Origin: Babesia bigemina
Taxonomy: Eukaryota
Assembly (NCBI RefSeq): GCF_000981445.1
Contig: NC_027218.1
Span: 3,410,001 to 3,474,000 of the forward strand
Reading direction: 5' to 3'
Length of the DNA: 64,000 nucleotides
Program-made: the position numbers and the translations under genes
The notes under the pieces: generated by a model
What the model saw: the letters and a program-made list of their open reading frames with translations, nothing else
Database searches by the model: none
Told to the model about the DNA's origin: nothing
Shown here: piece after piece, positions 2,282-60,785 of the stretch
Position numbering within the stretch: position 1 is the stretch's first letter
How the letters are laid out: each line of letters begins with the position of its first letter

Positions 2282-2460
2282 AACTTGGTCAGCACTTTGG
2301 TCAGCACGTTGGTCACCACATTGGTCAGCACTTTGGTCAGGTGCTTGGTCAGCACTTTGGTCATCACTTTGGTCAGCACATTGGTCAACACGTTGGTCAG
2401 CACTTTGGTCATGGCATTGGTCAGGTGCTTGGTCACCTCACTGCTCATGTGATTGGTCAT
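2282..2460. repeat. Repeat C array, 12-bp unit ttggtc+(agcaca/accact/atggca...)
   Basis: ttggtc every 12 nt. Confidence 0.95.
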
Positions 2461-3011: not shown

Positions 3012-4595
3012 CTCCCAGTCCCCTCAGCCTGCAAACATATCAATCACCTAAGCAGCACTCACCAACTGCAACACTACCACTGCCGCTCCCAGTCCCCTCA
3101 ACCTGCAATCATATCAATCACCTAGCAAGCACTCACCAACTGCAACACTACCACTGCCGCTCCCAGTCCCCTCAGCCTGCAAACATATCAATCACCTAAG
3201 CAACGCACTCACCAACAGCAACACTACCACTGCCGCTCCCAGTCCCCTCAACCAGCTAACATCAATCACTCAAGCAGCACTCACCAACTGCAACACGTAC
3301 CACTGCCGCTACCACTCCCCTCAACCTGCAGACATATCAATCACCTTGCAACGCACTCACCAACTGCAACACTACCACTGCCGCGCCCAGTCCCCTCAAC
3401 CTGCTAACATATCAATCACCTAGCAAAGCACTCACCAACTGCAACACTACCACTGCCGCTCCCAGTCCACTCAACCTGCGAACGTATCAATCACCTAGCA
3501 AGCACTCACCAACTGCAACACGTACCACTGCCGCTCCCAGTCCCCTCAGCCTGCAAACATATCAATCACCTAAGCAACGCACTCACCAACAGCAACACTA
3601 CCACTGCCGCTCCCAGTCCCCTCAACCAGCTAACATCAATCACTCAAGCAGCACTCACCAACTGCAACACGTACCACTGCCGCTACCACTCCCCTCAACC
3701 TGCAAGCATATCAATCACCTAGCAACGCACTCACCAACTGCAACACAACCACTGCCGCTCCCAGTCCCCTCAACCTGCGAACATATCAGTCACTCAAGCA
3801 GCACTCACCAACTGCAACACTACCACTGCCGCTCCCAGTCCCCTCAGCCTGCAAGCATATCAATCACCTAAGCAACGCACTCACCAACTGCAACACTACC
3901 ACTGCCGCTCCCTGTCCCCTCAGCCTGCAAGCATATCAATCACCTAAGCAGCACTCACCAACTACTACACGTACCACTGCCGCTCCCAGTCCCCGCAGCC
4001 TGCGAACATGTCAATCACCTAAGCAACGCACTCACCAACTGCAACACTACCACTGCCGCTCCACTCCCCTCAACCTGCAAACATATCAATCACCTAGCAA
4101 GCACTCACCAACTGCAACACTACCACTGCCGCTCCCAGTCCCCTCAGCCTGCGAACTATCAATCACCTAGCAACGCACTCACCAACTACAGCACGCACCA
4201 CTGCCGCTCCCACTCCCCTCAACCTGCAAACATCAATCACCTATGCAAGCACTCACCAACTGCAACACGTACCACTGCCGCGCCCAGTCCCCTCAACCTG
4301 CACGCATATCAATCACCTAAGCAGCACTCACCAACTGCAACGCGTACCACTGCCGCTCCCAGTCACCTCAACCTGCAGACATATCAATCACCTAAGCAGC
4401 ACTCACCAACTACAGCACGCACCACTGCCGCTCCCACTCCCCTCAACCTGCAAACATCAATCACCTATGCAAGCACTCACCAACTGCAACACGTACCACT
4501 GCCGCGCCCAGTCCCCTCAACCTGCACGCATATCAATCACCTAAGCAGCACTCACCAACTGCAACGCGTACCACTGCCGCTCCCAGTCACCTCAT
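3012..4595. repeat. Repeat D array, ~74-76-bp unit, ~21 copies, directly upstream of s1
   Basis: Unit caactgcaacactaccactgccgctcccagtcccctcaacctgcaaacatatcaatcacctagcaacgcactcac; actcac counted 21 times. Confidence 0.95.
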
Positions 4596-11460: not shown

Positions 11461-11590
11461 AACTTGGTCACCACTTTGGTCAGCACATTGGTCAGCACAT
11501 TGGTCAGCACATTGGTCAGCACTTTGGTCATCACTTTGGTCATGGCATTGGTCATCACTTTGGTCATCACTTTGGTCACCACTTTAGTTA
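11461..11590. repeat. Repeat C array
   Basis: Same 12-bp unit. Confidence 0.9.
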
Positions 11591-11709
11591 ACTACTACAC
11601 AATCACATACAACGATTAATGAGTGATACAACAGATTAAAGCACAATTCATAAGTTAGGTGAGTAGGTGATATGCTAGGTGAGTGTAGATAGTAGACACG
11701 TGAGTACGA

Positions 11710-11886
11710 TTATGGTTGCAGATAAAACACCCTGTTAAGCTTGTTAACACGTGCGGCAGCGAGTAGTGATTGAGCAGCTATCCTGTGACTCGATGGACTA
11801 TTTAAATGCGATTTGATGTGGAGGAGGTCTAGGCGGATGACCATGATGTGGAGGAGGTACAGGAGAGAGAGGAGCCAGAGGGCTAA
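11710..11886 (-). pseudogene. Remnant 3' end of a tail-B ves gene (LALWLLSLLYLLHIMVIRLDLLHIKSHLNSPSSHRIAAQSLLAAARVNKLNRVFYLQP*)
   Basis: Manual translation; matches tails of G4/G5/G7 and retains the tail-B 3' flank (11590-11710); rest of gene absent. Confidence 0.88.
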
Positions 11887-11993
11887 GTTATAATCGCTGC
11901 TGTAACCATTAACTTGGTCAGGCGATTTATCATCAACGCATTCATTACTCTGTCTACAACATTAGATGTCAGTTGCCGATAAGGTTAACGTGA

Positions 11994-12146
11994 TTAGCTG
12001 CGCAGTAGATACCGCACCCTGTGTAACGGCCGGATGCGGAAGTAGACCATGACGCAGATGACGACGATGATGATGAGCATAGGAGCGATGATGTAAGGGG
12101 CGGGGGAGGAGGGAGTAGTCACCTCACTGCTCATGTCATTGATCAT
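11994..12146 (-). other. Orphan R-type TM+tail cassette, 50-aa ORF MINDMSSEVTTPSSPAPYIIAPMLIIIVVICVMVYFRIRPLHRVRYLLRS
   Basis: Manual translation; homologous to C-terminus of s1/s2/s4/s5, no Cys-rich domain. Confidence 0.75.
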
Positions 12147-12247
12147 CAACGCAATTGCTACTCTGTCTAGAACATTAGATGTCAGTCGCCAGTCAGGTGA
12201 TCTGTGGGATTTCGATTAAGAATGTTAGCGCCAACATATTGCTGAGT

Positions 12248-12435
12248 TTAGCTGTAGAACGCGATGCAGAAGGGTATCTTGCGTACGAGGAAATCGCGGA
12301 TGTTGCGGCCCACCGGAAAGCGGAAGATGCACAGGTCGAGCAGGATGATGGCGACGATGATGCCAACGATGACGGCGGCGATGGCCGAGTAGGGAGAGTG
12401 AAGTAGTCACCTCACTGCTCATGTAATTGGCCATC
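12248..12435 (-). pseudogene. Orphan F-type TM+tail cassette (..PYSAIAAVIVGIIVAIILLDLCIFRFPVGRNIRDFLVRKIPFCIAFYS), out of frame with its MSSEVT leader
   Basis: Manual translation; TM frame has an upstream TGA. Confidence 0.75.
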
Positions 12436-12533
12436 AACGCAATCATTACTGTCTAGAACATTAGATGTCAGTTGCCAGTTAGGTGAGCAGTGGAATATGG
12501 ACGAACGATTTATGCGCTACTAAATTGCATAGT

Positions 12534-12680
12534 TCAGCTGTAGAACGCGATGCAGAAGGGAATCTTGCGTACGAGGAAATCGCGGATGTTGCGGCCCACC
12601 GGGAAGCGGAAGATGCACAGGTCGAGCAGGATGATGGCGACGATGACGGAGTAGGGAGGGAGTGGTCACCTCACTGCTAA
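12534..12680 (-). pseudogene. Orphan F-type tail cassette with shortened TM, out of frame with leader
   Basis: Manual translation PPYSVIVAIILLDLCIFRFPVGRNIRDFLVRKIPFCIAFYS*. Confidence 0.72.
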
Positions 12681-12753
12681 TTTTATTTAGCATCAGTACA
12701 ACCATTACTCTGTCTAGCACATTAGATGTCAGTTGCCAGTTAGGTTATTGTGA

Positions 12754-13215
12754 TCAGCTGCGCAGTAGATACCGCACCCTGTGGAACGGCCGGATGCGGA
12801 AGTAGACCATGACGCAGACGACGACGATGAGGAGGGCGACGGCGGCGATGATGTAAGGGACGGGGGAGGAATTGGATGGAGCGGTGGTATGAACAGCACT
12901 GGGTTCACCGGTGGAACGCTGTACGGTGGTAGAAGAGGAGACACTAGGCGATTGGACTGCGAGGGAGGAAGAAGAGCGAAGCTGTCGACGTTCTTCCAAT
13001 TTTTTTTTCTCACAACAGTCACATGGACACAATTTGGTGTCACATTCATTACATCTCTGAGGTTTGCAGTCCCAGAATCCACTCCTTAGCCGAGTAGACA
13101 GATTGAGACATCGAAGACAACTTGGACTCCTACATCCTGCACAACACAAATGACAACAAAGACACTCATGCTCTGTACATCGTTTTGTACACTTACACAA
13201 TGGAGTATAGCCCAT
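12754..13215 (-). CDS. Small Cys-rich single-pass membrane protein s2 (153 aa; R-type tail)
   Basis: Same Cys spacing, linker, TM and tail as s1; GGGAAG-ATG start. Confidence 0.85.
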   Translation of the reverse strand: MGYTPLCKCTKRCTEHECLCCHLCCAGCRSPSCLRCLNLSTRLRSGFWDCKPQRCNECDTKLCPCDCCEKKKLEERRQLRSSSSLAVQSPSVSSSTTVQRSTGEPSAVHTTAPSNSSPVPYIIAAVALLIVVVCVMVYFRIRPFHRVRYLLRS

Positions 13216-13227
13216 CTTCCCGCTTCC

Positions 13228-13665
13228 CTCCCAGTCCCCTCAGCCTGCAAACATATCAATCACCTAAGCAGCACTCACCAACTGCAACACTACCACTGCC
13301 GCTCCCAGTCCCCTCAACCTGCAAGCATGTCAATCACCTAGCAACGCACTCACCAACTGCAACACGTACCACTGCCGCTCCCACTCCCCTCAACCTGCAA
13401 GTATATCAATCACCTAGCAACGCACTCACCAACTGCAACACTACCACTGCCGCTCCCACTCCCCTCAACCTGCGAACATATCAATCACCTAAGCAACGCA
13501 CTCACCAACTGCAACACGTACCACTGCCGCGCCCAGTCCCCTCAACCTGCAGACATGTCAATCACCTAGCAACGCACTCACCAACTGCAACACTACCACT
13601 GCCACGCCCACTCCCCTCAAGCTGCAAGCATATCAATCACCTACGCAAGCACTCACCAACTGCGA
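13228..13665. repeat. Repeat D array, ~6 copies
   Basis: Same ~75-bp unit. Confidence 0.93.
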
Positions 13666-13679
13666 CATGACTTACATAA

Positions 13680-14691: not shown

Positions 14692-17600
14692 TCACGGCTG
14701 CAGGTACGATATCTTGGCAAGCCTTCCGACTTGCGCCGCCGCCAACAATGATTGAGCAGTAATCTTGTGCGATGATGGTGATCGTAAGTGCGATTTGATA
14801 TGGAGCACATCCAGTCTGCCAACCATTACGCAAACGAGGTAGAAAAGGGAGAGTGACCAGAGCGCGAGGACTAGATAGGTGAACGGTTCTCTGATTGTCC
14901 AAATGAAGTTGTCACATTCTTCAAATAATTTGGTGAAGTGTTGCGATTTCAGCAGATTACTCAGCTGTGTACTGAAACTAAGGCAGAATTTCCTGTTAGT
15001 TCCATACAGCGTTTTTGCGTCGCCAAAAGTGAACCCGTACTGGTAGAACGTAGTCATCACTCCACGACAGCTTATCAGTGCCTTGCACTTGCAGCTGTAT
15101 TCGACACCATGCTTACCCGGCTTGCACGAACATTTCGTACAACCGGAGCCTCCACAATCAATCTGCTGGAACGCATCGAGCAATGATTTCAGGTAACTGT
15201 AGAATGTCCACGGTAGATATACAGCCCATGAGAGGTAAAGATCAGCGTGCTTTTTGGCGAGGTACGTGTACGCATCTGAAGATGTGGAGCAGAGGTAGGG
15301 AGCGCAGTGAATATCCCTCTCATGAGGTAGATTGCACGAATCTTTCGACAGGCTCGACAAGTCAGCCTCCGTAGATTTGGAATGGTCTGAGCTGGTGTGG
15401 CCTGCTTGGTTGCGATATGCATTCTGCAGCGCACCTGTGAGTTTGCTTGTCTCTTTGTATAGATCGATGGACAGCGCTTTCGTTTTCGTTACAAAAGCTA
15501 AGCTGACATCACTAGCGGCGTTAGCATTATCTAACATACTACTTAACGTCAACGCAAATTGGAAGTGTTCGGGCAATGTAGATGGCGGCTTGGGCAGCAG
15601 ACCGAAGAGCGCGTTAATATTCGAATTGTCGAAGAATTTGGTCAGCACGGTACATATGTCCTTACCTGTCTTCGTGCTTCCCGAGAAACCCCTAAAGCCA
15701 AGTGGTGTTATACATGGCGCACCGGGTAGGCTTTTGGGACACGTTTTACACTCGGACTTACACCCCGCTGAAACCAACTGGTGAGGCAGGCACCCGGGTA
15801 GGCTGTCGCGAAGATACGACATCAGCGGTGATCTAGGTAGGCAATCGGTTGACTCGTTGGCGGGGTGTTCACCGCATTGCCAATTGGAGTGTTTGACTCC
15901 TCTGCCGTACTGACAGCCGGACCAGCCGTGGTATGCAGAGCTTAGGCCGCATTGAGTATGCAAAAATTTAAGTGAGGGTAGTAGTCTGCGAAGAATGTCC
16001 AATAGCATCTGAAGGCAATCTTCGCCCTTGGATGGGTAGTGAAAGTTCAGCGAATTGGTCGAGTAGTCAACGGCGTACATGGAGTACGCGTCCCCGGTTC
16101 CAGCGATTGTTGTGAGAATATCGTGGGATCTGGAACACAGGCGTTTCACTGCGCGCTGAGTATCGTCCATCGCTATGTTTTGTGGATACGCTGGCAGGGG
16201 TTCGTCGCTGATGTATGTGACGGGAATACCATCGGCGTCTTCGGGCTGTTTACTTGGATCGACGAATAGTTCACTGATAGCGTCATCCAACATATCTTGA
16301 TACACGTTATTGCACGGTAGCCCGGACACCCAGCACAGCATCTCGAATATGTTACATGGACGTTTCCTCGCAGAGAAGGTGGCGATGTGGCTGACTTGAT
16401 AATATGTTTGGAGACAGTCGTGCAGTGTATCCAGTGCGTTTTGCTTAGATTTATCAATGTAATACAAGTGGTGTTCATCTTTCCCGAACATACGTTTGCA
16501 GATGAATAATCCTGTCATGCCTTTACTGTCCTGCAGCTCCCAGTGCTTCTTCCCGTCCTCGGTAACTTTGTAGCCTTGAGTGGCGAAATATTTTCCGAGC
16601 TCTGTGTTTATGTTTATTTGATCGCTTTTACACCTTGCAACGCAGTACTTCAGTAAAGTCTTGAACTCGGAATACAGGATGGAGAGCAGCGACAGGCACA
16701 CTTTAGCGCACTTGTTGCCATCATCGGTCACTTTATCATTTCTTGCGTCGACCAATACCATGCCATCCGAAGCTCCGTCGTACGCGTTTAAATATGTCTT
16801 ACTAAGCTCAGCCGCAAACTTACCCAGCCCCTTACTTATACCGTCAAGCAGCGGAGTGCTCGGCTCAGAAAATGACTCAGGGTGGAGACCATCGACCTCC
16901 GTGGAGAGGATGTCGAGCATCTCAGGCATCTTATTGTCGTACCTATTATGTTCACGAAGATGGTTTAGCAGAATGTTTAGTTCGTTAGTAACGGAATCAA
17001 TCTTGGAAGTGTACAATTTTTCTACGTCGGTGGGCTCGGGATTGGTTTTCTCGTTATTCGCTGCGTGGGCTCGTTTGATCTCTTTTTTGAGGTACGTGTT
17101 GAGTGGATGCCAGAATGACTGGAACTGCTTGGCCAAATCTGTGAATTGCTTGGGATCGTATTTAGTCGAGGACATAGTTGTTGCAACACTTTTAAGCTTC
17201 TCTATATTGACATCGGAAACTGTTCTGCCATTTTCACCAGCAAACGTTCCCATGAAACCCTTGAAGCCCGTAATCAGGTCGTCGCTAATTTCCTGCCGAA
17301 TGCCAGTGAGTTCCTTAGTGACCCTGTCCTCATAATGCAGGAGTAGCATCTTCATAGTGGAAACGTAATCTATCCGGGCTCGTGTTGTGAGCTCCTTTTT
17401 CGCTTTCGCTACTTCTTCGTCGATTTGCTGTTTAAGTTTTTCGGTGGTTTCGTCGCGCAATTTATCTGCTTCAGGTTTGAGGAACTGCTCGCCAAAAGTC
17501 AAGGCTCGAGTCACCGGACCTGCTCGCAATGTTTCAAGGTCATGCTTGATTTTCTTTATGCTATCTTCTGCATCCTTTTTCTTAATGTCGTAATGCTTAA

Positions 17601-20316
17601 AGTAGGTATTTTTCAACTTTTCCAAGATTGTCTTAGCGTTATCCTTATCATCTCTCGCCGCTTTCATGACGGCTTCACAAAGCTGCTGAAAATCTGATGT
17701 TAATGTATTGAACTGATCCTGAACTTTGCCATTAATTATTCCGATCTCTGATAATGCCGCTTCCACTCCCCTCTGAATCTCACCGATCGCCGCGGGGAGG
17801 GTGCCTGCTTCTTTGATGGTGTTGAAGTCAGGATTGGAGAGGGCGGCAAGTTTGTCCTCTGTTTGGTCGACGAAACTATTGTATTGGGTGAAACTTGGCG
17901 CTCCTTCAAGTTTCACATGGCTGCCTTGCTTGGGAGCACTTTCCTCGGGCATTTGATTTTTTAACACATTCGTTACTTCCGTGATCGCGTTGTCGACGGC
18001 TTTGGCGTGGTTTTGGTCTCGGTCGGATTTATCTCTGAGTGCTACTTTGAGGTTTTCGTAAAGCTCATCAGCTACACGAAGTGCATTGTCCAGGTATGCT
18101 GAGGCGCTAGTTTGAGCCTTCCCTTTAAACCTTGGTTCCAGCAGAAGCGAATTAAGCTCCATTGCAGCTGTGGTGGATCTTAAAGCAAGTTGTTTAAACG
18201 TGGACGTTACAGCGTCTTGTAAGTTGCGTTTAATATGAACCGCAGTATCGGATTTCGCTTCATGTTTCAACTCTTCATCGTCTTCCATTGCCTGAACTAT
18301 TGTTGGAAGTTTGCTATCAACACTTGAAAGTAGACTGCTGCCGAACGCTTTTACGTTCTGCTGAATAACTTTCAAACGAGATTCAACGCTATCATCTGTG
18401 AAACGAGGCTCAGCGAATAGTTTCTTAATCTCTTCAATCAGCATTTTCTGCAGCTTTTCCGTTACCGATTTTGTGGTTGTGGTATTTTTGAAATAATTAT
18501 TATTCCTTCCCGTGTTCTCGTTGACATAAACCTTCAGCTTTCCATTAATAGCATCGCTAATTACAATTTCACCAACCCACGCTGCCACTTTAGCAGCGAA
18601 CTGATCGCCGGTGTAACTTTTTGAAACATACGTCTTTATTATTTGTTTTATGGCCCCGAGACCGGTGTCACCTCGTGTACCTCCGTGAATTCCATTTATT
18701 GTATTCCTAATATGTTCAACAATTCCTTCTATACTATCACCTTTCGTGATGGAAGTAAACTTATTCCCAAGTGCCGTAATCTTCGCATTTATTCCATTGA
18801 CCGCACTTCTTATTGCCGTCTTGACCTTAAACAAATCCTCCTTGAGCTTTCCGTCCATCTCTTTCACCTGCGCAAGCGCTGCTTTTACGTGCTCGTCAGC
18901 TGCTTTGTTGGCCTTGTTCCCAGCATCGAATAACTCGAATGCTCGGTCGTACAGCTCTTGGGCAGCTTTCTTAATCGGCTTGACATTGCTGAAGACAGAG
19001 TCTTCGCTAACTGCAGTAATGATTATATGAACCTTTTCTAACGCCGCTTCCACGGCAGTGTTTGCCTGCTCAATCCATTTAGTCAGATCCTGCACATACT
19101 CGAACAAGTTTTTTTCAATTTTTTTCAGCTCATCCAAAATTGCCCGGACCAACATCCGCAACTTCGTGACAAGTTCAGTCACTTCCTTACATATATGCGC
19201 ATTAACTTTTTTTCCATGATCCGTACAGACACTCTCGATCCTAGACTTCATAGTATCAAAGTCTCTGCTTTCCTTATCTGACAACTTCTTGAATCTCTCA
19301 CTTTCATCTTTGACGAAGCCTACAGCTTTTATTACTTTGAGTGACAGCGGATGATTCAAATCATTAATATCATTTTTCATCTCTGTTTTCGTCTTCAGAT
19401 TGAAAGTCTCATTAAACGTCGCAGCATACTGTTGACAATTTGACGACGCATTTCTGACGGACTTTTCTGCCTTCTCGGCTTCTGAATGAAAACGTATATC
19501 GATATTTTCATTTATGTCATTTATTTTCATTTTTAGCGTGTTAATTTCTCTTTCGAAATTTTCTATTTGTTTCCTTACTTTCAAATTACTTTTTCTAACA
19601 CCATCATTATACCTCCCCACCCCTGCGACCACACTTCCAATCGCAGCATTAAAACCTTTTTTACCGCCGTGTTTATTGGTGTTAAGTATCTTAATTACAG
19701 GTGTAATTGTCTCTTTATGCTGCCCTAAATGCTCTTTGATGTTGCTGAGAACACCACTCAAAAATCCCATCACCCCGTCACACAGCCTGTCAAGGTCGGA
19801 GTACACAATCCCATCACCAGTGTAGCCTTTGGAGGATGGATTGAAGCCAAGAAAAGTCTGAAGACCGTCACATAAATTAACAAGGAGATTTTTAGGCTCA
19901 TTTTGTTTAGTATTAAGATTAGTCAAAAATCCACAAAGCTTCTCCACTTTCTTCAAAGCCTCCAACTTGGACTGCAATTTGGCTAGCTCAGCAGAGGGAG
20001 AGGGGGAAGAAAGAGAGTTATAATGAAGGTTATTAGGCTTACTAAGTAGTCTATTTATGTCATCAATTTCCTGACTAACTTGCTTACTAAGCTTCTCAAT
20101 TTCACCGGTGCCATCAGCCTGGCCAGCAGACTTGACAGACTCAGAAAGGTTAGTAACATAAGAAGAGTAAAGATGTTTAAGCTCTTCATTACTGTTAATT
20201 ACAGCGATAATAGCATTCTTAACGGCTTTCTTAACACTGTCACTTTGACCAACAAATCCTCCAAGTTGACCAGCAAGGTGACCAAGGCTAATGAGCTTGG
20301 AGTCAATGTCATTCAA
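14692..20316 (-). CDS. ves: VESA-like protein G2 (tail A, long N-terminus); ORF-track start is TTG, first in-frame ATG 19770
   Basis: 1874-codon ORF with same conserved motifs; leaders at 20390 and 20526 do not join the ORF. Confidence 0.85.
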   Translation of the reverse strand: MNDIDSKLISLGHLAGQLGGFVGQSDSVKKAVKNAIIAVINSNEELKHLYSSYVTNLSESVKSAGQADGTGEIEKLSKQVSQEIDDINRLLSKPNNLHYNSLSSPSPSAELAKLQSKLEALKKVEKLCGFLTNLNTKQNEPKNLLVNLCDGLQTFLGFNPSSKGYTGDGIVYSDLDRLCDGVMGFLSGVLSNIKEHLGQHKETITPVIKILNTNKHGGKKGFNAAIGSVVAGVGRYNDGVRKSNLKVRKQIENFEREINTLKMKINDINENIDIRFHSEAEKAEKSVRNASSNCQQYAATFNETFNLKTKTEMKNDINDLNHPLSLKVIKAVGFVKDESERFKKLSDKESRDFDTMKSRIESVCTDHGKKVNAHICKEVTELVTKLRMLVRAILDELKKIEKNLFEYVQDLTKWIEQANTAVEAALEKVHIIITAVSEDSVFSNVKPIKKAAQELYDRAFELFDAGNKANKAADEHVKAALAQVKEMDGKLKEDLFKVKTAIRSAVNGINAKITALGNKFTSITKGDSIEGIVEHIRNTINGIHGGTRGDTGLGAIKQIIKTYVSKSYTGDQFAAKVAAWVGEIVISDAINGKLKVYVNENTGRNNNYFKNTTTTKSVTEKLQKMLIEEIKKLFAEPRFTDDSVESRLKVIQQNVKAFGSSLLSSVDSKLPTIVQAMEDDEELKHEAKSDTAVHIKRNLQDAVTSTFKQLALRSTTAAMELNSLLLEPRFKGKAQTSASAYLDNALRVADELYENLKVALRDKSDRDQNHAKAVDNAITEVTNVLKNQMPEESAPKQGSHVKLEGAPSFTQYNSFVDQTEDKLAALSNPDFNTIKEAGTLPAAIGEIQRGVEAALSEIGIINGKVQDQFNTLTSDFQQLCEAVMKAARDDKDNAKTILEKLKNTYFKHYDIKKKDAEDSIKKIKHDLETLRAGPVTRALTFGEQFLKPEADKLRDETTEKLKQQIDEEVAKAKKELTTRARIDYVSTMKMLLLHYEDRVTKELTGIRQEISDDLITGFKGFMGTFAGENGRTVSDVNIEKLKSVATTMSSTKYDPKQFTDLAKQFQSFWHPLNTYLKKEIKRAHAANNEKTNPEPTDVEKLYTSKIDSVTNELNILLNHLREHNRYDNKMPEMLDILSTEVDGLHPESFSEPSTPLLDGISKGLGKFAAELSKTYLNAYDGASDGMVLVDARNDKVTDDGNKCAKVCLSLLSILYSEFKTLLKYCVARCKSDQININTELGKYFATQGYKVTEDGKKHWELQDSKGMTGLFICKRMFGKDEHHLYYIDKSKQNALDTLHDCLQTYYQVSHIATFSARKRPCNIFEMLCWVSGLPCNNVYQDMLDDAISELFVDPSKQPEDADGIPVTYISDEPLPAYPQNIAMDDTQRAVKRLCSRSHDILTTIAGTGDAYSMYAVDYSTNSLNFHYPSKGEDCLQMLLDILRRLLPSLKFLHTQCGLSSAYHGWSGCQYGRGVKHSNWQCGEHPANESTDCLPRSPLMSYLRDSLPGCLPHQLVSAGCKSECKTCPKSLPGAPCITPLGFRGFSGSTKTGKDICTVLTKFFDNSNINALFGLLPKPPSTLPEHFQFALTLSSMLDNANAASDVSLAFVTKTKALSIDLYKETSKLTGALQNAYRNQAGHTSSDHSKSTEADLSSLSKDSCNLPHERDIHCAPYLCSTSSDAYTYLAKKHADLYLSWAVYLPWTFYSYLKSLLDAFQQIDCGGSGCTKCSCKPGKHGVEYSCKCKALISCRGVMTTFYQYGFTFGDAKTLYGTNRKFCLSFSTQLSNLLKSQHFTKLFEECDNFIWTIREPFTYLVLALWSLSLFYLVCVMVGRLDVLHIKSHLRSPSSHKITAQSLLAAAQVGRLAKISYLQP

Positions 20317-21555: not shown

Positions 21556-21742
21556 TCAGCTGTAAAACGCGATGCAGAAGGGTATCTTGCGTACGAGGAA
21601 ATCGCGGATGTTGCGGCCCACAGGGAAGCGGAAGATGCACAGGTCGAGCAGGATGATGGCGACGAAGATGGCAACGATGACGGCGGCGATGGCGGAGTAC
21701 GGAGGGGGGGAAGGTCACCTCACTGCTCATGCGATTCGTCAT
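21556..21742 (-). pseudogene. Orphan F-type TM+tail cassette, out of frame with its MSSEVT leader (a G homopolymer lies at the junction)
   Basis: Near-copy of the s3 3' end and its 3' flank; TGA at 21715-21717 in TM frame. Confidence 0.75.
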
Positions 21743-22401: not shown

Positions 22402-22409
22402 CTTCCCCT

Positions 22410-22645
22410 CCCAGTCACTCAATCTGCGAACATATCAATCACTCAAGCAGCACTCACCAACTGCAACACGTACCACTGCCCCTCCCAGTCCCCTTAACCT
22501 GCAGACATATCAATCACCTAGCAACGCACTCACCAACTGCAACACTACCACTGCCGCTCCAGTCCCCTCAACCTGCAGACATATCAATCACTCAAGCAGC
22601 ACTCACCAACTGCAACACGTACCACTGCCGCTCCCAGTCCCCTCA
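22410..22645. repeat. Repeat D array, ~3 copies
   Basis: Same unit. Confidence 0.9.
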
Positions 22646-28929: not shown

Positions 28930-29010
28930 TGTCATCGCTGCCGTGTCCATAACCATGTCACCGCTGCCGTGACCATGTCATCGCTGCCGTGACCATGTCA
29001 TCGCTGCCGT
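28930..29010. repeat. Repeat B array (short)
   Basis: Same unit. Confidence 0.88.
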
Positions 29011-29017
29011 GATTATT

Positions 29018-29407
29018 AACTTGGTCAGCACATTGGTCACCACTTTGGTCAGCACATTGGTCAGCACCTTGGTCACCACTTTGGTCAGCACATTGGTCAG
29101 CACCTTGGTCACCACTTTGGTCAGCACCTTGGTCAGCACGTTGGTCAGCACATAGGTCACCACTCTGGTCATGGCATTGGTCACCACTTTGGTCACCACT
29201 TTGGTCAGCACTCTGGTCATCACGTTGGTCACCACATTGGTCAGCACATTGGTCAACATGTTGGTCATGGCATTGGTCACCACGTTGGTCAGCACATTGG
29301 TCAACACGTTGGTCAGCACATTGGTCAGCACCTTGGTCAGCACTTTGGTCATGGCATTGGTCATGGCATTGGTCAGCACCTTGGTCAGCATCTTGGTCAT
29401 CACTTTA
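29018..29407. repeat. Repeat C array, ~32 copies
   Basis: Same unit. Confidence 0.93.
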
Positions 29408-35498: not shown

Positions 35499-35997
35499 TG
35501 TCATCGCTGCCGTGTCCATGTCGTCGCTGCCGTGTCCATATCATCGCTGCCGTGACCATGTCATCGCTGCCGTGACCATGACATCGCTGCCGTGTCCATA
35601 TCATCGCTGCCGTGACCATGTCATCGCTGCTGTGTCCATGTCATCGCTGCCGTGACCATGTCATCGCTGCTGTGTCCATGTCATCGCTGCCGTGACCATA
35701 TAATCGCTGCCGTGACCATGTCATCGCTGCCGTGACCATGACATCGCTGCCGTGTCCATATCATCGCTGCCGTGACCATGTCATCGCTGCTGTGTCCATG
35801 TCATCGCTGCCGTGACCATGTCATCGCTGCCGTGACCATTTCATCGCTGCCGTGACCATGTCACCGCTGCCGTGACCATGTCATCGCCGCCGTGACCATG
35901 TCATCGCTGCCGTAACCATGTCATCGCTGCCGTAACCAGGTCATCGCTGCCGTGTCCATGTCATCGCTGCCGTGTCCATGTCATCGCTGCCGTGACT
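35499..35997. repeat. Repeat B array, ~25 copies
   Basis: Same unit. Confidence 0.95.
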
Positions 35998-36000
35998 ATC

Positions 36001-36296
36001 AACTTGGTCACCACGTTGGTCATGGCATTGGTCAGCACTCTGGTCAGCACATTGGTCAGCACTTTGGTCACCACTTTGGTCATGGCATTGGTCAGCATCT
36101 TGGTCACCACATTGGTCAGCACCTTGGTCACCACGTTGGTCAGCACCTTGGTCAGCACATTGGTCACCACGTTGGTCGTCGCATTGGTCAGCATTTTGGT
36201 CACCACTTTGGTCAGCACGTTGGTCAACACTTTGGTCAGCACATTGGTCAGCACTTTAGTCAACACGTTGGTCAGCATCTTGGTCACCACTTTAGT
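36001..36296. repeat. Repeat C array
   Basis: Same unit. Confidence 0.93.
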
Positions 36297-36417: not shown

Positions 36418-39400
36418 TTACGGCTGCAGATAAAACACTCTGTTAAGCTTGTTAACACGTGCAGCGGCGAGTAGTGATTGAGCAGCTATCCTATGACTCG
36501 AGGGACTATGCAAATGCGATTTAATGTGCAGCAGGTCGAGGCGGATGACCATGATGTGGAGCAGGTACAGGAAAGAGAGGAGCCAGAGGGCGACGTTGAG
36601 CCAGATGAAGGGGGCGCGAATTTTGAAGAGGAATTCAGGGATAGTTTTGTGCACAAGGTTGTAGAGCACGCTTCCTGGTTTTACAACATTCCCTAATGTC
36701 TTGCAAAATTCGACGCACGTCCTTTTGGTGTTGATACGCTTGGCTCCATTTAGCGATTCTGCGTCTCGGAAAGTAAATCCATACTTGTATAATATGGGTA
36801 GCGTCGACTGGCAGCTAACAACAGAAATGCAGGCGTGATCGTGACTCGGGTCAGCACTTCTTTTGGTCTGTTGCCTTTCACAGCCCTTTGCGCAGCTCTG
36901 CGTACTGCATCTAGTCCCCGGTTTGCCACACTTGCTATTGCACTCCTCAAACAATTGCTGAAGCACATAATAGAATGATTCCGTCAAATAGAGGACGGAT
37001 GACAGATACCGATCGGCGTGCTTGACGGTGAACGTTGTGCTGACTTCGGAGCATATAGGTTTCATGTAAGGACCACAGGCGTGAGATGAGTTGGAACTCG
37101 GATTACAGCTTAACAGGGAGTAGAGAGCACCATCAGCATGCTTACCGAATTTGTGGCTTGTAGTTCCAAGCATCGGCGTGATTTCCAGCTGGGTACTGGA
37201 ATTTTCAAAATTTGCAGCAATGACGGCACTGTTGAACGCCTCTTCTCTGTGCGTTATAAGTGATTTAAATCTCTGATCATTCCAGTCGACAAGCAAACAT
37301 TGGAAGAATGCGAACATCTGATCAAATGTTTTGGGAGCACTGGGCAGCACACAACGGAGCATAGAGCACATGGCAGTGAGGGGAGATGACGCAGTGCCGC
37401 AGAACTCAGCAAGCACATATCTAATATGCCTGCCAGTGTACCTGTGCGATGCCATGATGGAAATATCCTTGAAGCCCATGGGCGTTTTGCATGGCCCGTT
37501 GGTATGGCTTTTGACCGGGCAGTTGAGTTTGCCGGAGTTCCCATCTAGGTTATGCGGTAGGAAGCCCCGTAACCCGTCCTCTAGGTAAGATTGTAGAGGT
37601 GATTTTACGCCGCACCTTGGATGCCTTTTGCATTTCTCGGCACTGTTGCAATCGCCGCAGCTGAGGTCATTGCACCGCCAACCCGAGCCACCGACGCCTT
37701 GACCGTATTCGCACTCACGCCAGCCACTCATCGAAGTTGAACGTTTGCACTGATCTAACAAGAAATACAGTTGGTTGTACAGGCGGTTTACGATTTCGCA
37801 TAGCATACATACTAAGGTGTCCATGTTGGTGGGATACTGGAAGCCTTGCGGGTTGGTGTTGAAGTCGCAGGCGTAGATGCCGTCACCGTGGCCGTGACCC
37901 AAGAGAACAATAAGAGTCTCTTCGGCTTGGTGGCATACGGCTGTGAGGGTATCCGAGAGGCAAGTAGCTGTGATCTTCTTCGGGTAAGCCTCCAACGCAT
38001 TGTCATCTTCCGTCTTGAGAGTGATCTCGCTGTCATCCGTGTCGTCATCCTCCCTAACGACAGGGTCAGCGTTTTGATCACTCGCTTCCGATGCCGTTTC
38101 CTGTGGTTTTTCAAACAGGTTAGCGAAACCGTTGAGTGTCAACTCGTGATGGACGCGATTGTGAGAGAGACCGGTCAGCCAGCATAGCATATCGAATATT
38201 GAAGACGGGTGTTTTTTGGAGGTGGCAGTAAAGTGACAGATTTGGTAGTAAAAGTGGAGGTAGTCAAATAGATCCTTAAGTAATCCGGAGTGATCCTGCG
38301 ACGATCGCTTATCAAATACCGCAGATGGAGCAACGAGCAGCTCCAAAATGTTATGGCTCCTACACTCCCCATGGTTACGCAATTCACCGTCCTGCTTCGA
38401 AGAGTCAGTGGCAACGTGGTAGCCATTCGACCGGAAGAAATCACCGAGCGGATTCTTTTTGTCGCTGGTTGACGCATAGATTCTCTTGACATTCCCAACC
38501 TGACCGCATACTCTCCTCATCTCGACCAGAGCGTTGAAGAGAATCGAAAACACGGTGAGACACACCTTCGAACACTTCTTGCCGTACGCTGTCAAATCAT
38601 ACGTATTCTCAGATTTTTCGGTTGTGACTTTAATCCGATGGTTAGTCGTCAAATCATCGGTAAGCAACGCACGATCATACTTCGATATGTAGACGCTTCT
38701 CATCTCACTAACAAATTTGGTGAGCCCAGCGGCAATGCTGTCGAGTATGGCAGTGTTCGGCTTGGCGAAGGTTTCTGGTTTTAGTCCGGCGATCTCAGCG
38801 TCGAGCTTGTCAAGCTTTCCGTGCGTCTCATGGTCATACCCATTCTTGCTGGTGAAGTGCATGAGCACCTCATCGAGTGCGCCGAAAACAGATTTAAGCT
38901 TTTTAGTGTACGTAACCTCAGAAACTGTCGGCGCGCGATTCTTTCTTTTCCTTTCCTCCATATCCACTCTGTCGATCTCACGTTCCAGCAGCATTTGCCA
39001 TGGCCCGAAACAGAGCTTAAAGGCGTATGATAACTTATGAACAGTATAATCACCGTTGCGTAAATCATTAGTAAGAGGAACGTGGAAGTCTTTCATGAAC
39101 CCCTTAAATCCAATCTTCAAGTCCGCATCAATTTTCCTGGGCAGATCCCTCAACTCAGTCCTCACCTTGCCGGCAAACTCCGTGAGCAGGAACTTGATGG
39201 CCTCGACGTACGTTTTGCGGGCGTGGGTGGTGAGCTTGTCGGTGGCTTTTTGGATGTCCTTTTTGACGTGGTCTGAAATTAGTTGAGTGTAATGCTTATC
39301 GGCTCCGGCTAGGTACGAGTCAAGTAGATCGGTGGCGTCTTTGAGGGCCGTAGACACGGGGCCAGTTTGCAGCTCGTGAAGTTTTTCATGAATTTCCTGA

Positions 39401-43463: not shown

Positions 43464-43655
43464 TTAGCTGTAAAACGCGATGCAGAAGGGTATCTTGCGT
43501 ACGAGGAAATCGCGGATGTTGCGGCCGACCGGAAAGCGGAAGATGCACAGGTCGAGCAGGATGATGGCGACGATGATGGCAACGACGACGGCGGCGATGG
43601 CTTGGGGGGAAGTAGTCACATCACTGCTCATGTGATTTTTCATCAACGTAATCAT
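43464..43655 (-). other. Orphan F-type TM+tail cassette, in frame with leader (63-aa ORF)
   Basis: ORF track MITLMKNHMSSDVTTSPQAIAAVVVAIIVAIILLDLCIF...CIAFYS. Confidence 0.7.
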
Positions 43656-44151: not shown

Positions 44152-44164
44152 CTTCCCCTCTCCC

Positions 44165-44660
44165 TCCCACTCCCCTCAACCTGCAAACATATCAATCACC
44201 TAGCAACGCACTCACCAACTGCAATGTACCACTGCCGCTCCAGTCCCCTCAACCTGCGAACATGTCAATCACCTATGCAAGCACTCACCAACCGCAACAC
44301 GTACCACTGCCGCTCCCAGTCCCCTCAGCCTGCAGACATATCAGTCACCTAGCAACGCACTCACCAACTGCAACACTACCACTGCCGCTCCCAGTCCCCT
44401 CAGCCTGCGATCATATCAATCACTCAAGCAGCACTCACCAACTGCAACACTACCACTGCCTCTACCAGTCCCCTCAACCTGCAAACATCAATCACTTAAG
44501 CAGCACTCACCAACTGCAACACGTACCACTGCCGCTCCCACTCCCCTCAGCCTGCAGACATATCAATCACCTAGCGACGCACTCACCAACTGCAACACGT
44601 ACCACTGCCGCTTCCAGTCCCCTCATCAACACGTACCAGTGCCGTTCCAGTCCTTTCATC
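44165..44660. repeat. Repeat D array, ~6 copies
   Basis: Same unit. Confidence 0.92.
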
Positions 44661-59291: not shown

Positions 59292-59806
59292 AACTTGGTC
59301 AGGTGGTTGGTCATCGCATTGGTCACCACTCTGGTCATGGCATTGGTCAGCACGTTGGTCAGCACTTTGGTCAGCACTTTGGTCAGCACGTTGGTCACGG
59401 CGTTGGTCAGCCACTAGGTCACCACGTTGGTCACGGCGTTGGTCAGCCACTAGGTCACCACGTTGGTCATGGCATTGGTCAGCACTTTGGTCACCACTTT
59501 GGTCATGGCATTGGTCACCACTCTGGTCATGGCATTGGTCATCACGTTGGTCACCACTCTGGTCATGGCATTGGTCAACACGTTGGTCATGGCATTGGTC
59601 AGCACCTTGGTCACCACCTTGGTCAGCACATTGGTCAGCACCTTGGTCAGCACATTGGTCACCACTCTGGTCATGGCATTGGTCAACACTTTGGGCAGCA
59701 TCTTGGTCACCACGTTGGTCATGACATTGGTCAACACGTTGGTCACCACTTTGGGCAGCATCTTGGTCATGGCATTGGTCAGCACTTTGGTCATGTGATT
59801 GGTCAT
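59292..59806. repeat. Repeat C array, ~43 copies
   Basis: Same unit. Confidence 0.94.
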
Positions 59807-59904: not shown

Positions 59905-60099
59905 TTAGCTGTAGAATGCGATGCAGAAGGGTATCTTGCGTACGAGGAAATCGCGGATGTTGCGGCCCACCGGGAAGCGGAAGATGCACAGGTCGAGCAG
60001 GATGATGGCGACGATGATGGCAACGATGACGGCGGCGATGGCGGAGTAGGGAGGGGGGGATAGTGGAGTAGTCACCTCACTGCTCATGTAATTTGCCAT
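59905..60099 (-). other. Orphan F-type TM+tail cassette, in frame with leader (64-aa ORF)
   Basis: ORF track MANYMSSEVTTPLSPPPYSAIAAVIVAIIVAIILLDLCIF...CIAFYS. Confidence 0.7.
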
Positions 60100-60158
60100 A
60101 AAGCAATCATTACTCTGTCTAGAACATTAGATGTCAGTCGCCAGTTATGTAATTGTGA

Positions 60159-60617: not shown

Positions 60618-60785
60618 CTGCCGCTCCCGGTCCCCTCAACCTGCAAACATCAATCACCTAGCAAGCACTCACCAACTGCAACACTACCACTGCCGCTACC
60701 ACTCCCCTCAACCTGCAAACATATCAATCACTCAAGCAGCACTCACCAACTGCAACACTACCACTGCCGCTCCCAGTCCCCTCAT
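60618..60785. repeat. Repeat D array, ~2 copies
   Basis: Same unit. Confidence 0.88.

What the first reader, a model, noticed from the sequence alone, without database searches (positions are those of the whole stretch)
11710..12745. Train of four orphan TM+cytoplasmic-tail cassettes of three different types behind s2
Seen: downstream of s2 come F-tail (12534), F-tail (12248), R-tail (11994) and ves tail-B (11710) fragments. Each begins just before the TM helix, and each is preceded by the same linker (minus strand ctgacatctaatg(t/g)...tagacag). In the three small-gene cassettes this leads into an (M)SSEVT segment that elsewhere runs straight into the C array (2430-2472). Single orphan F tails also follow s3, s4 and s5. 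Only the anchor module is ever duplicated, never the Cys domain. Inference: a reservoir for swapping membrane anchors by recombination, alternative last exons, or independent microproteins.
Basis: partly seen in the sequence, partly recalled or inferred. Interest (0 to 1): 0.75.

Follow-up and report, generated by a model that had tools for sequence, protein, structure and literature searches.

The report
Stranded membrane-anchor tails in Babesia array
Behind a small surface-type gene of a cattle blood parasite lie four headless copies of gene ends coding only a membrane anchor and tail; they are likely scars of the recombination that swaps tails between these variant genes, and most cannot be read into protein on their own.

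Summary
The window is a ves1 array of Babesia (named homologues: B. bigemina). Behind s2 lie F, F, R and ves-B tails at the stated coordinates, and no orphan Cys domain was found. The 'linker' is the ordinary 3' flank of every small gene, also of s1, which has no orphan. Its ATG is the first codon of the 12-mer satellite. Only 3 of 6 small-gene orphans here, and 4 of 10 junctions from other samples, are in frame with it (7 of 16, p=0.26 against 1/3). c1, c2 and the s3 orphan have no start codon or AG acceptor in their open frame. Tails stay intact and show four-gamete recombination, and adjacent units have unrelated flanks, so conversion probably collects and refreshes them. Tail swapping itself is real: ves tail type does not follow body type, it switches where the orphan ves tail begins, and chimeric tails are annotated. 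Best reading: scars of one-ended tail replacement, spread by unequal exchange, passive donors at most. No RNA run was offered, so splicing and microproteins stay open. The parent family (55 hypothetical proteins) is not described in the papers I searched.

The parts
12754..13215 (-). s2: 153-aa Cys-rich domain, Ser/Pro stalk, TM and R-type tail; member of a B. bigemina hypothetical-protein family
12665..12753 (-). 3' flank (linker) of s2, ending in the first 1.5 units of the 12-mer satellite; ATG lost
12534..12664 (-). c1: orphan F tail, TM shortened by 8 codons, no start codon or AG in its open frame
12406..12533 (-). F-type 3' flank and linker belonging to c1
12248..12405 (-). c2: orphan F tail with full TM, out of frame with the linker ATG, no AG in its open frame
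12118..12247 (-). F-type 3' flank and linker belonging to c2 (F-specific flank 63% identical to that of c1)
11994..12117 (-). c3: orphan R tail, in frame with linker ATGs at 12134 and 12146 (46 or 50 aa ORF); carries changes not seen in the four R genes of the window
11922..11993 (-). R-type 3' flank and linker belonging to c3
11893..11921 (-). Satellite remnant: one 12-mer unit and the start of the 20-mer array
11710..11892 (-). c4: orphan ves tail B, beginning where tail types A and B diverge in intact ves genes; no ATG upstream in frame
11464..11709 (-). Normal ves-B 3' flank and 12-mer satellite array
14692..19770 (-). Upstream ves1 ORF with tail A and a short B-like patch in the tail; inferred former owner of c4 under the insertion model
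   Evidence: ownership inferred
21556..21713 (-). Orphan F tail behind s3, out of frame; flank 98% identical to that of s3 (local duplication)
43464..43614 (-). Orphan F tail behind s4, in frame with the linker ATG
59905..60070 (-). Orphan F tail behind s5, in frame; F-specific flank identical to that of the s4 orphan 16 kb away

Best explanation
The four units are headless copies of gene 3' ends (membrane anchor, tail, stop codon, 3' flank), likely left by tail-replacement events in which copying began in the conserved anchor region and rejoined imprecisely, pushing the old tail downstream. Shown: the unit structure, the junction positions, the frames, mosaic tails, discordance of tail and body. 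Inferred: a few founding joins (F, R, ves-B and a third small-gene type), with the left end in the first satellite units and the right end at the TM start, the only place where the variable paralogues become alike. Also inferred: later spread by unequal exchange or conversion through the repeated linker and tail, which gathers units from different loci into trains and keeps their coding sequence fresh. For c4, the block [tail A, satellites, s2, linker] would have entered a B-tailed ves gene at the A/B switch point and stranded tail B with its own flank. The units are probably not expressed as a class, and could serve as passive donors for further swaps.
For: The linker is the 3' flank of 11 of 11 small-gene tails, and its ATG is in register with the 12-mer satellite. 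The frame is not significantly enriched: 3 of 6 in the window, 4 of 10 in other samples, p=0.26. F tails are 96-98% identical in all 15 pairs while flanks range from 63 to 100%, and 3 of 3 pairs of informative sites fail the four-gamete test. Two of the 7 synonymous variants stand at about half the depth among tail contigs of run X1, so they are family-wide alleles. c1 and c2 flanks are 63% alike, those of the s4 and s5 orphans 100%. Among 8 ves genes, one B-tailed and one A-tailed gene are each other's closest body (43% against 29-34%), and the tail types diverge right after the ALW motif, where c4 begins. 5 of 5 A tails are followed by the 24-mer array and a small gene; 3 of 3 B tails and c4 directly by the 12-mer array. 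Linker-to-tail junction contigs stand in 6 of 7 runs laid, with different junction lengths. B. bovis lacks c-NHEJ genes and its conversion breakpoints need little homology (PMC7485966, passages).
Against: No orphan has a stop or frameshift inside the tail, and all 7 variable F-tail sites are synonymous (P 3.7e-5 if independent and neutral), which selection on protein would also give. 7 of 16 in frame is above 1/3, and the test has little power. A possible donor in the R tail joins a linker AG in frame for 3 of 4 R-to-orphan pairs in the window. Insertion and deletion give the same sequence at c4, so I cannot tell them apart. The tree of small-gene Cys domains is mostly unresolved (2 of 19 branches starred), and the tail label is clustered on it (4 changes, shuffled mean 6.7), so tail swapping among small genes rests on chimeric TM sequences, not on the tree. 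No parent-and-product pair was observed.
Confidence: 0.65

Rival explanations
1. Alternative 3' splicing: an intron of 64-68 bases from a donor in the R tail to an AG in the linker would remove the stop codon and append the next cassette, giving a two-TM isoform with a different tail.
For: The linker core has branch-point-like and AG motifs; in-frame products result for s4, s5 and c3-to-c4 (3 of 4 window pairs; 1/27 for the three linkers with an open frame, post hoc). Database gene models P0015, P0017, P0026, P0046 and P0053 read this way.
Against: No product for s2-to-c1, nor, by my hand reading of gap counts, for X3 records 18 and 19: 3 of 6 in all. c1, c2 and the s3 orphan have no AG in their open frame. 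The database models are of unknown basis, many have visibly wrong 5' parts, and only in-frame cases can be annotated.
Confidence: 0.12
2. In-frame orphans are independent 46-68 aa membrane microproteins started at the linker ATG, for example decoys or partners for the tail's binding machinery; out-of-frame ones are their pseudogenes.
For: 6 stand-alone ORFs of this form are annotated elsewhere in B. bigemina (P0009-P0012, P0014, P0070); junctions of several different lengths keep the frame; F tails vary only synonymously.
Against: The ATG is part of the satellite unit and is also present in terminal linkers without a tail, as at s1. No enrichment of in-frame junctions (7 of 16). The ATG lies only about 70-120 bases behind the previous stop codon, leaving little room for a promoter. 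Annotated cases are ascertained for being in frame.
Confidence: 0.1
3. A selected reservoir for programmed anchor switching: short pop-outs between a gene's pre-TM stretch and a downstream orphan change the tail type as an adaptive switch.
For: R genes s2, s4 and s5 are each followed by an F orphan; R and F share Pro-rich pre-TM sequence; hybrids of the two TM types exist (P0012, P0005; X2 record 16).
Against: Orphans add no new tail sequence; s1 has none, s3 has its own type, and c1, the nearest to s2, is damaged. Known reservoirs store the variable part, not the constant part (recalled).
Confidence: 0.07
4. Plain deletion scars: whole intervening blocks (satellites, ves body, Cys domain) were deleted, leaving only the last 130-180 coding bases of the next gene, with no link to tail replacement. 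This is the main alternative for c4 alone (about 0.35 for that unit).
For: c4 reads as linker, shortened satellite, then tail B with its normal flank, which a deletion would also give.
Against: Breakpoints would have to fall at the TM start in genes of 0.5 and 5 kb; no longer remnant with stalk or Cys domain is seen; the s3 orphan is a local duplicate (flank 98%).
Confidence: 0.05

Closest known systems
BbigVes1ba, recombinant ves1b genes with ves1a-type 3' ends (Jackson et al. 2014, PMC4066756, section 22 part 1 read)
   Same: Exchange of the conserved C-terminal end between ves subfamilies in B. bigemina; here tail type is discordant with body type.
   Different: The passages I read do not mention stranded tails, the switch point at the TM start, or that tail A travels with a downstream small gene. 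That tail A is the ves1a-type end is my inference, not tested.
Segmental gene conversion of B. bovis ves genes (PMC7485966, passages)
   Same: Patchwork sequence, breakpoints needing little homology, no c-NHEJ.
   Different: That process replaces patches without changing length, mainly in the active locus; here whole 3' modules are added and left behind.
Solitary var exon-2 pseudogenes of Plasmodium falciparum; 3'-donor pseudogenes of Trypanosoma brucei VSG (both recalled, no call)
   Same: Headless conserved 3' ends of variant surface antigen genes within the family's clusters.
   Different: var exon 2 is bounded by a real intron, and VSG 3' donation is shown to rescue incomplete genes. Neither is shown here, and there is no sequence homology.
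BbigVes2 and B. bovis smORF (PMC4066756)
   Same: Small multigene families lying among ves1 genes.
   Different: Both are described as secreted, without the membrane anchor; the s family is Cys-rich with a C-terminal TM and no N-terminal hydrophobic peak.

Membership tests
ves1 array of B. bigemina | Large ORFs with the conserved C-terminal TM and tail | tested here: met
   8 ORFs share an aligned TM and tail. Pfam gave no VESA family for the 3 scanned, so the name ves1 rests on recalled tail motifs and on B. bigemina homologues of the neighbouring genes.
ves1ba (tail-swapped ves1b) | ves1b body with a ves1a-type 3' end | tested here: inconclusive
   Two tail types on intermixed bodies; no reference ves1a or ves1b sequence was compared.
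ves2 / smORF (for the s genes) | Secreted, no C-terminal membrane anchor | tested here: not met
   s2 and s3 have a C-terminal hydrophobic segment, KD 3.0-3.25 over 19 residues.
Alternative last exon | AG acceptor within the open frame of the tail | tested here: not met
   None for c1, c2 and the s3 orphan.
Alternative last exon | AG acceptor and open frame for c3, c4 and the s4 and s5 orphans | tested here: met
   AGs listed; frames.
Alternative last exon | Spliced transcripts | not testable with these tools
   No RNA holder listed.
Microprotein family | Start codon kept in frame more often than chance | tested here: inconclusive
   7 of 16, p=0.26; low power, junctions not independent.
Microprotein family | Own transcript and translation | not testable with these tools
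   No RNA or peptide data.
Silent donor-cassette reservoir (vls or msp2 type, recalled) | Cassettes hold variant sequence absent from expressed genes | tested here: not met
   The last 33 codons of 5 orphan F tails encode the same protein as gene s3.
Silent donor-cassette reservoir (vls or msp2 type, recalled) | Directional transfer into an expressed locus | not testable with these tools
   Needs clonal lineages.

The most novel reading that the evidence does not exclude
B. bigemina has a species-specific family of small Cys-rich membrane proteins riding on tail-swapped ves genes, whose cytoplasmic tail is chosen from a downstream train of anchor cassettes, by a stop-removing intron (two-TM isoforms, even one ending in a VESA tail) or by pop-out recombination, while in-frame cassettes double as membrane microproteins.
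Probability: 0.15. Interest if true: 0.8.

Novelty: new variant of a known kind. Interest (0 to 1): 0.45.

Why it matters
The stranded ves-B tail marks the exact point where tail types A and B are exchanged, and suggests how the published ves1ba recombinants arise: as a mobile block of tail A plus a small gene. It shows that the constant anchor of Babesia variant antigens is itself modular. The parent family of at least 55 small Cys-rich TM proteins, all named hits from B. bigemina, is annotated as hypothetical, and I found no description of it. If the in-frame cassettes are spliced or translated, this would be an unusual way to vary the intracellular end of surface proteins. If not, the units are informative scars.

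Tried and rejected
No whole genome was held, so there is no direct genome-wide count; annotated proteins show only in-frame cassettes. No RNA holder was listed; this says nothing on expression. Assembly artefact rejected: junction contigs stand in 6 of 7 runs laid. Stop-codon readthrough from s2 rejected: a second stop follows two codons later. c1 and c2 as a recent tandem duplicate of each other rejected: flanks 63% alike. Pfam and the ESM Atlas (best score 0.79) gave nothing for s2. The HMMER library search gave 42 hits: 36 already named B. bigemina, 4 more so named, and 2 unnamed weak hits (E 3e-5, 2e-4) that look compositional. The Cys-domain tree did not resolve tail swapping (22 of the family members used, those with a complete Cys domain). 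I first took P0023 for an R/F frameshift chimera; P0070 and P0066 show it is a third tail type. The c4 junction in another sample: X4 record 25 runs across it without gaps but has only 27 letters on the ves side, short of the tool's 31, so it is a hint only. G4-like runs lie at the TM start of 3 of 5 small genes at high stringency, and s3 has one in its stalk; no control was run, so I do not use them. Supplement searches for family gene ids found nothing: file 1 of PMC4066756 was not searchable and may hold the proteomics table, searches had no positive control, and PMC5660447 does not use these ids. Earlier-findings look-ups were empty.

Full report
Context. The window is a head-to-tail array of large ORFs of 1500-1800 aa on the minus strand, separated by satellite arrays of 22, 20, 12, 75 and 24 bases. 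The small genes s1-s5 match hypothetical proteins of Babesia bigemina, and the large ORFs have the C-terminal TM and tail of ves1 genes (tail motif recalled; Pfam gave no VESA family). No whole genome was held.

Observation. All four tails are present with the stated stops. The linker core occurs 11 times against 1.95 expected. Every copy follows a small-gene tail, including that of s1, which has no orphan. So the repeated unit is tail, stop, flank and linker, 259-289 bases for F units, and the linker in front of a cassette belongs to the unit before it. The linker ends in the first units of the 12-mer satellite, and the ATG of MSSEVT is the first codon of the first unit. c1 has lost this ATG and 8 codons of its TM; c4 begins inside the ves TM, after 29 bases of satellite. 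A Cys-domain HMM found only the five intact genes among 2358 segments.

Can the cassettes be read? In the window 3 of 6 small-gene orphans are in frame with the linker ATG (c3, s4, s5). c1, c2 and the s3 orphan are closed by a stop 30-57 bases before the anchor motif, with no ATG or AG in between. For a sample not biased by annotation I laid contigs of 7 of the 17 listed runs (all contigs, tables cut, 1079 and 25 pieces not shown). Six of the 7 show a linker-to-tail junction. From net gap counts and hand reading of joints and loose ends, 4 junctions are in frame (X1 record 4, X1 record 7, X2 record 11, X3 record 19). Six are not (X5 record 9, X7 record 13, X3 record 18, X2 record 16, an R-type loose end in X5, and an ATG-less variant seen in X1 and X5, counted once). 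I dropped two as undecidable (X4 record 26; an X1 R-type junction with a stop and a second ATG). Not all gap places are shown for X1 record 4 and X3 record 18. Together 7 of 16, p=0.26 against 1/3; the junctions share ancestry and the test is weak. Six stand-alone in-frame ORFs are annotated elsewhere in the species, two of them as neighbours on one contig, so trains recur; annotation cannot show out-of-frame ones.

Splicing. A possible donor in the R tail and AGs in the linker define an intron of 64-68 bases that removes the stop. The downstream frame runs into the next tail for s4, s5 and c3-to-c4, not for s2-to-c1 nor, by hand reading, for two R-to-F contigs of X3. Five database models read this way, but their basis is unknown. 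No RNA run was offered, so this stays open.

Why are the tails intact? The six F tails differ at 7 of 99 sites, all synonymous, even in out-of-frame orphans. Selection is one reading. Homogenisation fits at least as well: tails are 96-98% alike in all 15 pairs whatever their flanks (63-100%), 3 of 3 informative site pairs show all four gametes, and two of the variants stand at about half the depth of X1 tail contigs. Some orphans carry changes not seen in the window's genes: I to F in the s3 orphan, F to L in c3, H to N in c4, the last absent from all 22 and 24 contigs of X1 and X4 at that place. c4 differs from intact B tails by 13-16 synonymous and 3-4 non-synonymous codons, like intact tails among themselves (15-21 and 1-4).

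Tail swapping. Among the 8 ves genes, body similarity does not follow tail type: the genes ending at 36418 (B) and 61724 (A) are closest to each other (43% against 29-34%), and 29529 (B) is 53% alike to three A genes. The two tail types diverge right after the ALW motif, and the same pre-ALW sequence occurs with either tail; c4 starts a few bases before that motif. Tail A always carries the small-gene block and tail B never does. The s2 locus therefore reads as ves body, A block, then B tail with its own flank: what an incomplete replacement of B by A would leave. A deletion of a whole B gene gives the same sequence and is not excluded. In the small family, P0012 has an R-type TM start on an F tail and P0005 an F-type start on an R tail. 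The Cys-domain tree is too weak to add to this.

Mechanism. I propose a few founding joins made when copying that began at the conserved TM start ended in the donor's satellite and rejoined by little or no homology; for s3, where the parent is known, the overlap is 2 bases (read by eye). The near-constant left end at the second satellite unit points to shared ancestry, followed by spread through homologous exchange in the linker and tail. That explains unrelated neighbours (c1, c2) and identical distant flanks (s4 and s5 orphans). B. bovis lacks c-NHEJ genes and converts with microhomology (PMC7485966; PMC9047050; passages only). These steps are inferred, not observed.

Literature. PMC4066756 (passages and section 22 part 1) reports 16 ves1ba genes with swapped 3' ends, and secreted ves2. 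PMC5660447 (passages, section 28), PMC10463595 (passages) and PMC6630957 (passages) did not mention this small family or orphan tails in what I saw. Of PMC9531838 I searched supplements only. Searches listed no paper whose title or abstract start describes them; the library lacks most subscription papers.

Verdict. Real and widespread in the species' samples, most likely recombination scars that expose how anchors are exchanged. A dedicated reservoir is unlikely; splicing or microproteins for the in-frame subset remain possible and are easy to test. Interest 0.45; new variant of a known kind.

Noticed in passing
window 13228-13667, also 3012-4594, 22408-22645, 44164-44625, 60618-60784 (minus strand): The 75-mer arrays upstream of each small gene read as repeated units of about 35 bases from GTGAGT to CAG, alternating with about 40-base spacers, like a train of micro-introns. 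A TGA closes the gene's frame just before the ATG, so they would lie in the 5' UTR. Checked by eye for the s2 array only.
   Followed up: partly
window s1-s5; P0001-P0070: Family of small Cys-rich TM proteins: 55 hits, all named B. bigemina hypothetical proteins, with at least three tail types (F, R and the P0023/P0070 type). Many database models have wrong 5' ends spliced from the 75-mer array.
   Followed up: partly
whole window: Strict linkage: 5 of 5 tail-A ves genes are followed by the 24-mer array, 75-mer array and a small gene; 3 of 3 tail-B genes directly by the 12-mer array.
   Followed up: yes
window 14692-14800: The A tail of this ves gene has a short B-like patch (IKSHL..SPSSH), not closest to c4; patchy conversion between tail types.
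   Followed up: partly
window 60095-60120: The s5 linker has both the 2-base longer acceptor region and a 1-base shorter stretch, which together bring the second AG into the frame of the orphan; a single post hoc case.
   Followed up: partly
window 2285-2444, 28978-29400, 35961-36278, 59450-59806: The 12-mer satellite is open in one frame and gives (VLTN)-repeat ORFs of 100-140 aa, in register with the linker ATG; expected from the unit sequence, coding status unknown.
   Followed up: no
run X7 record 13: An F orphan is followed by a linker and a satellite remnant resembling the one in front of c4; what follows was not shown.
   Followed up: no
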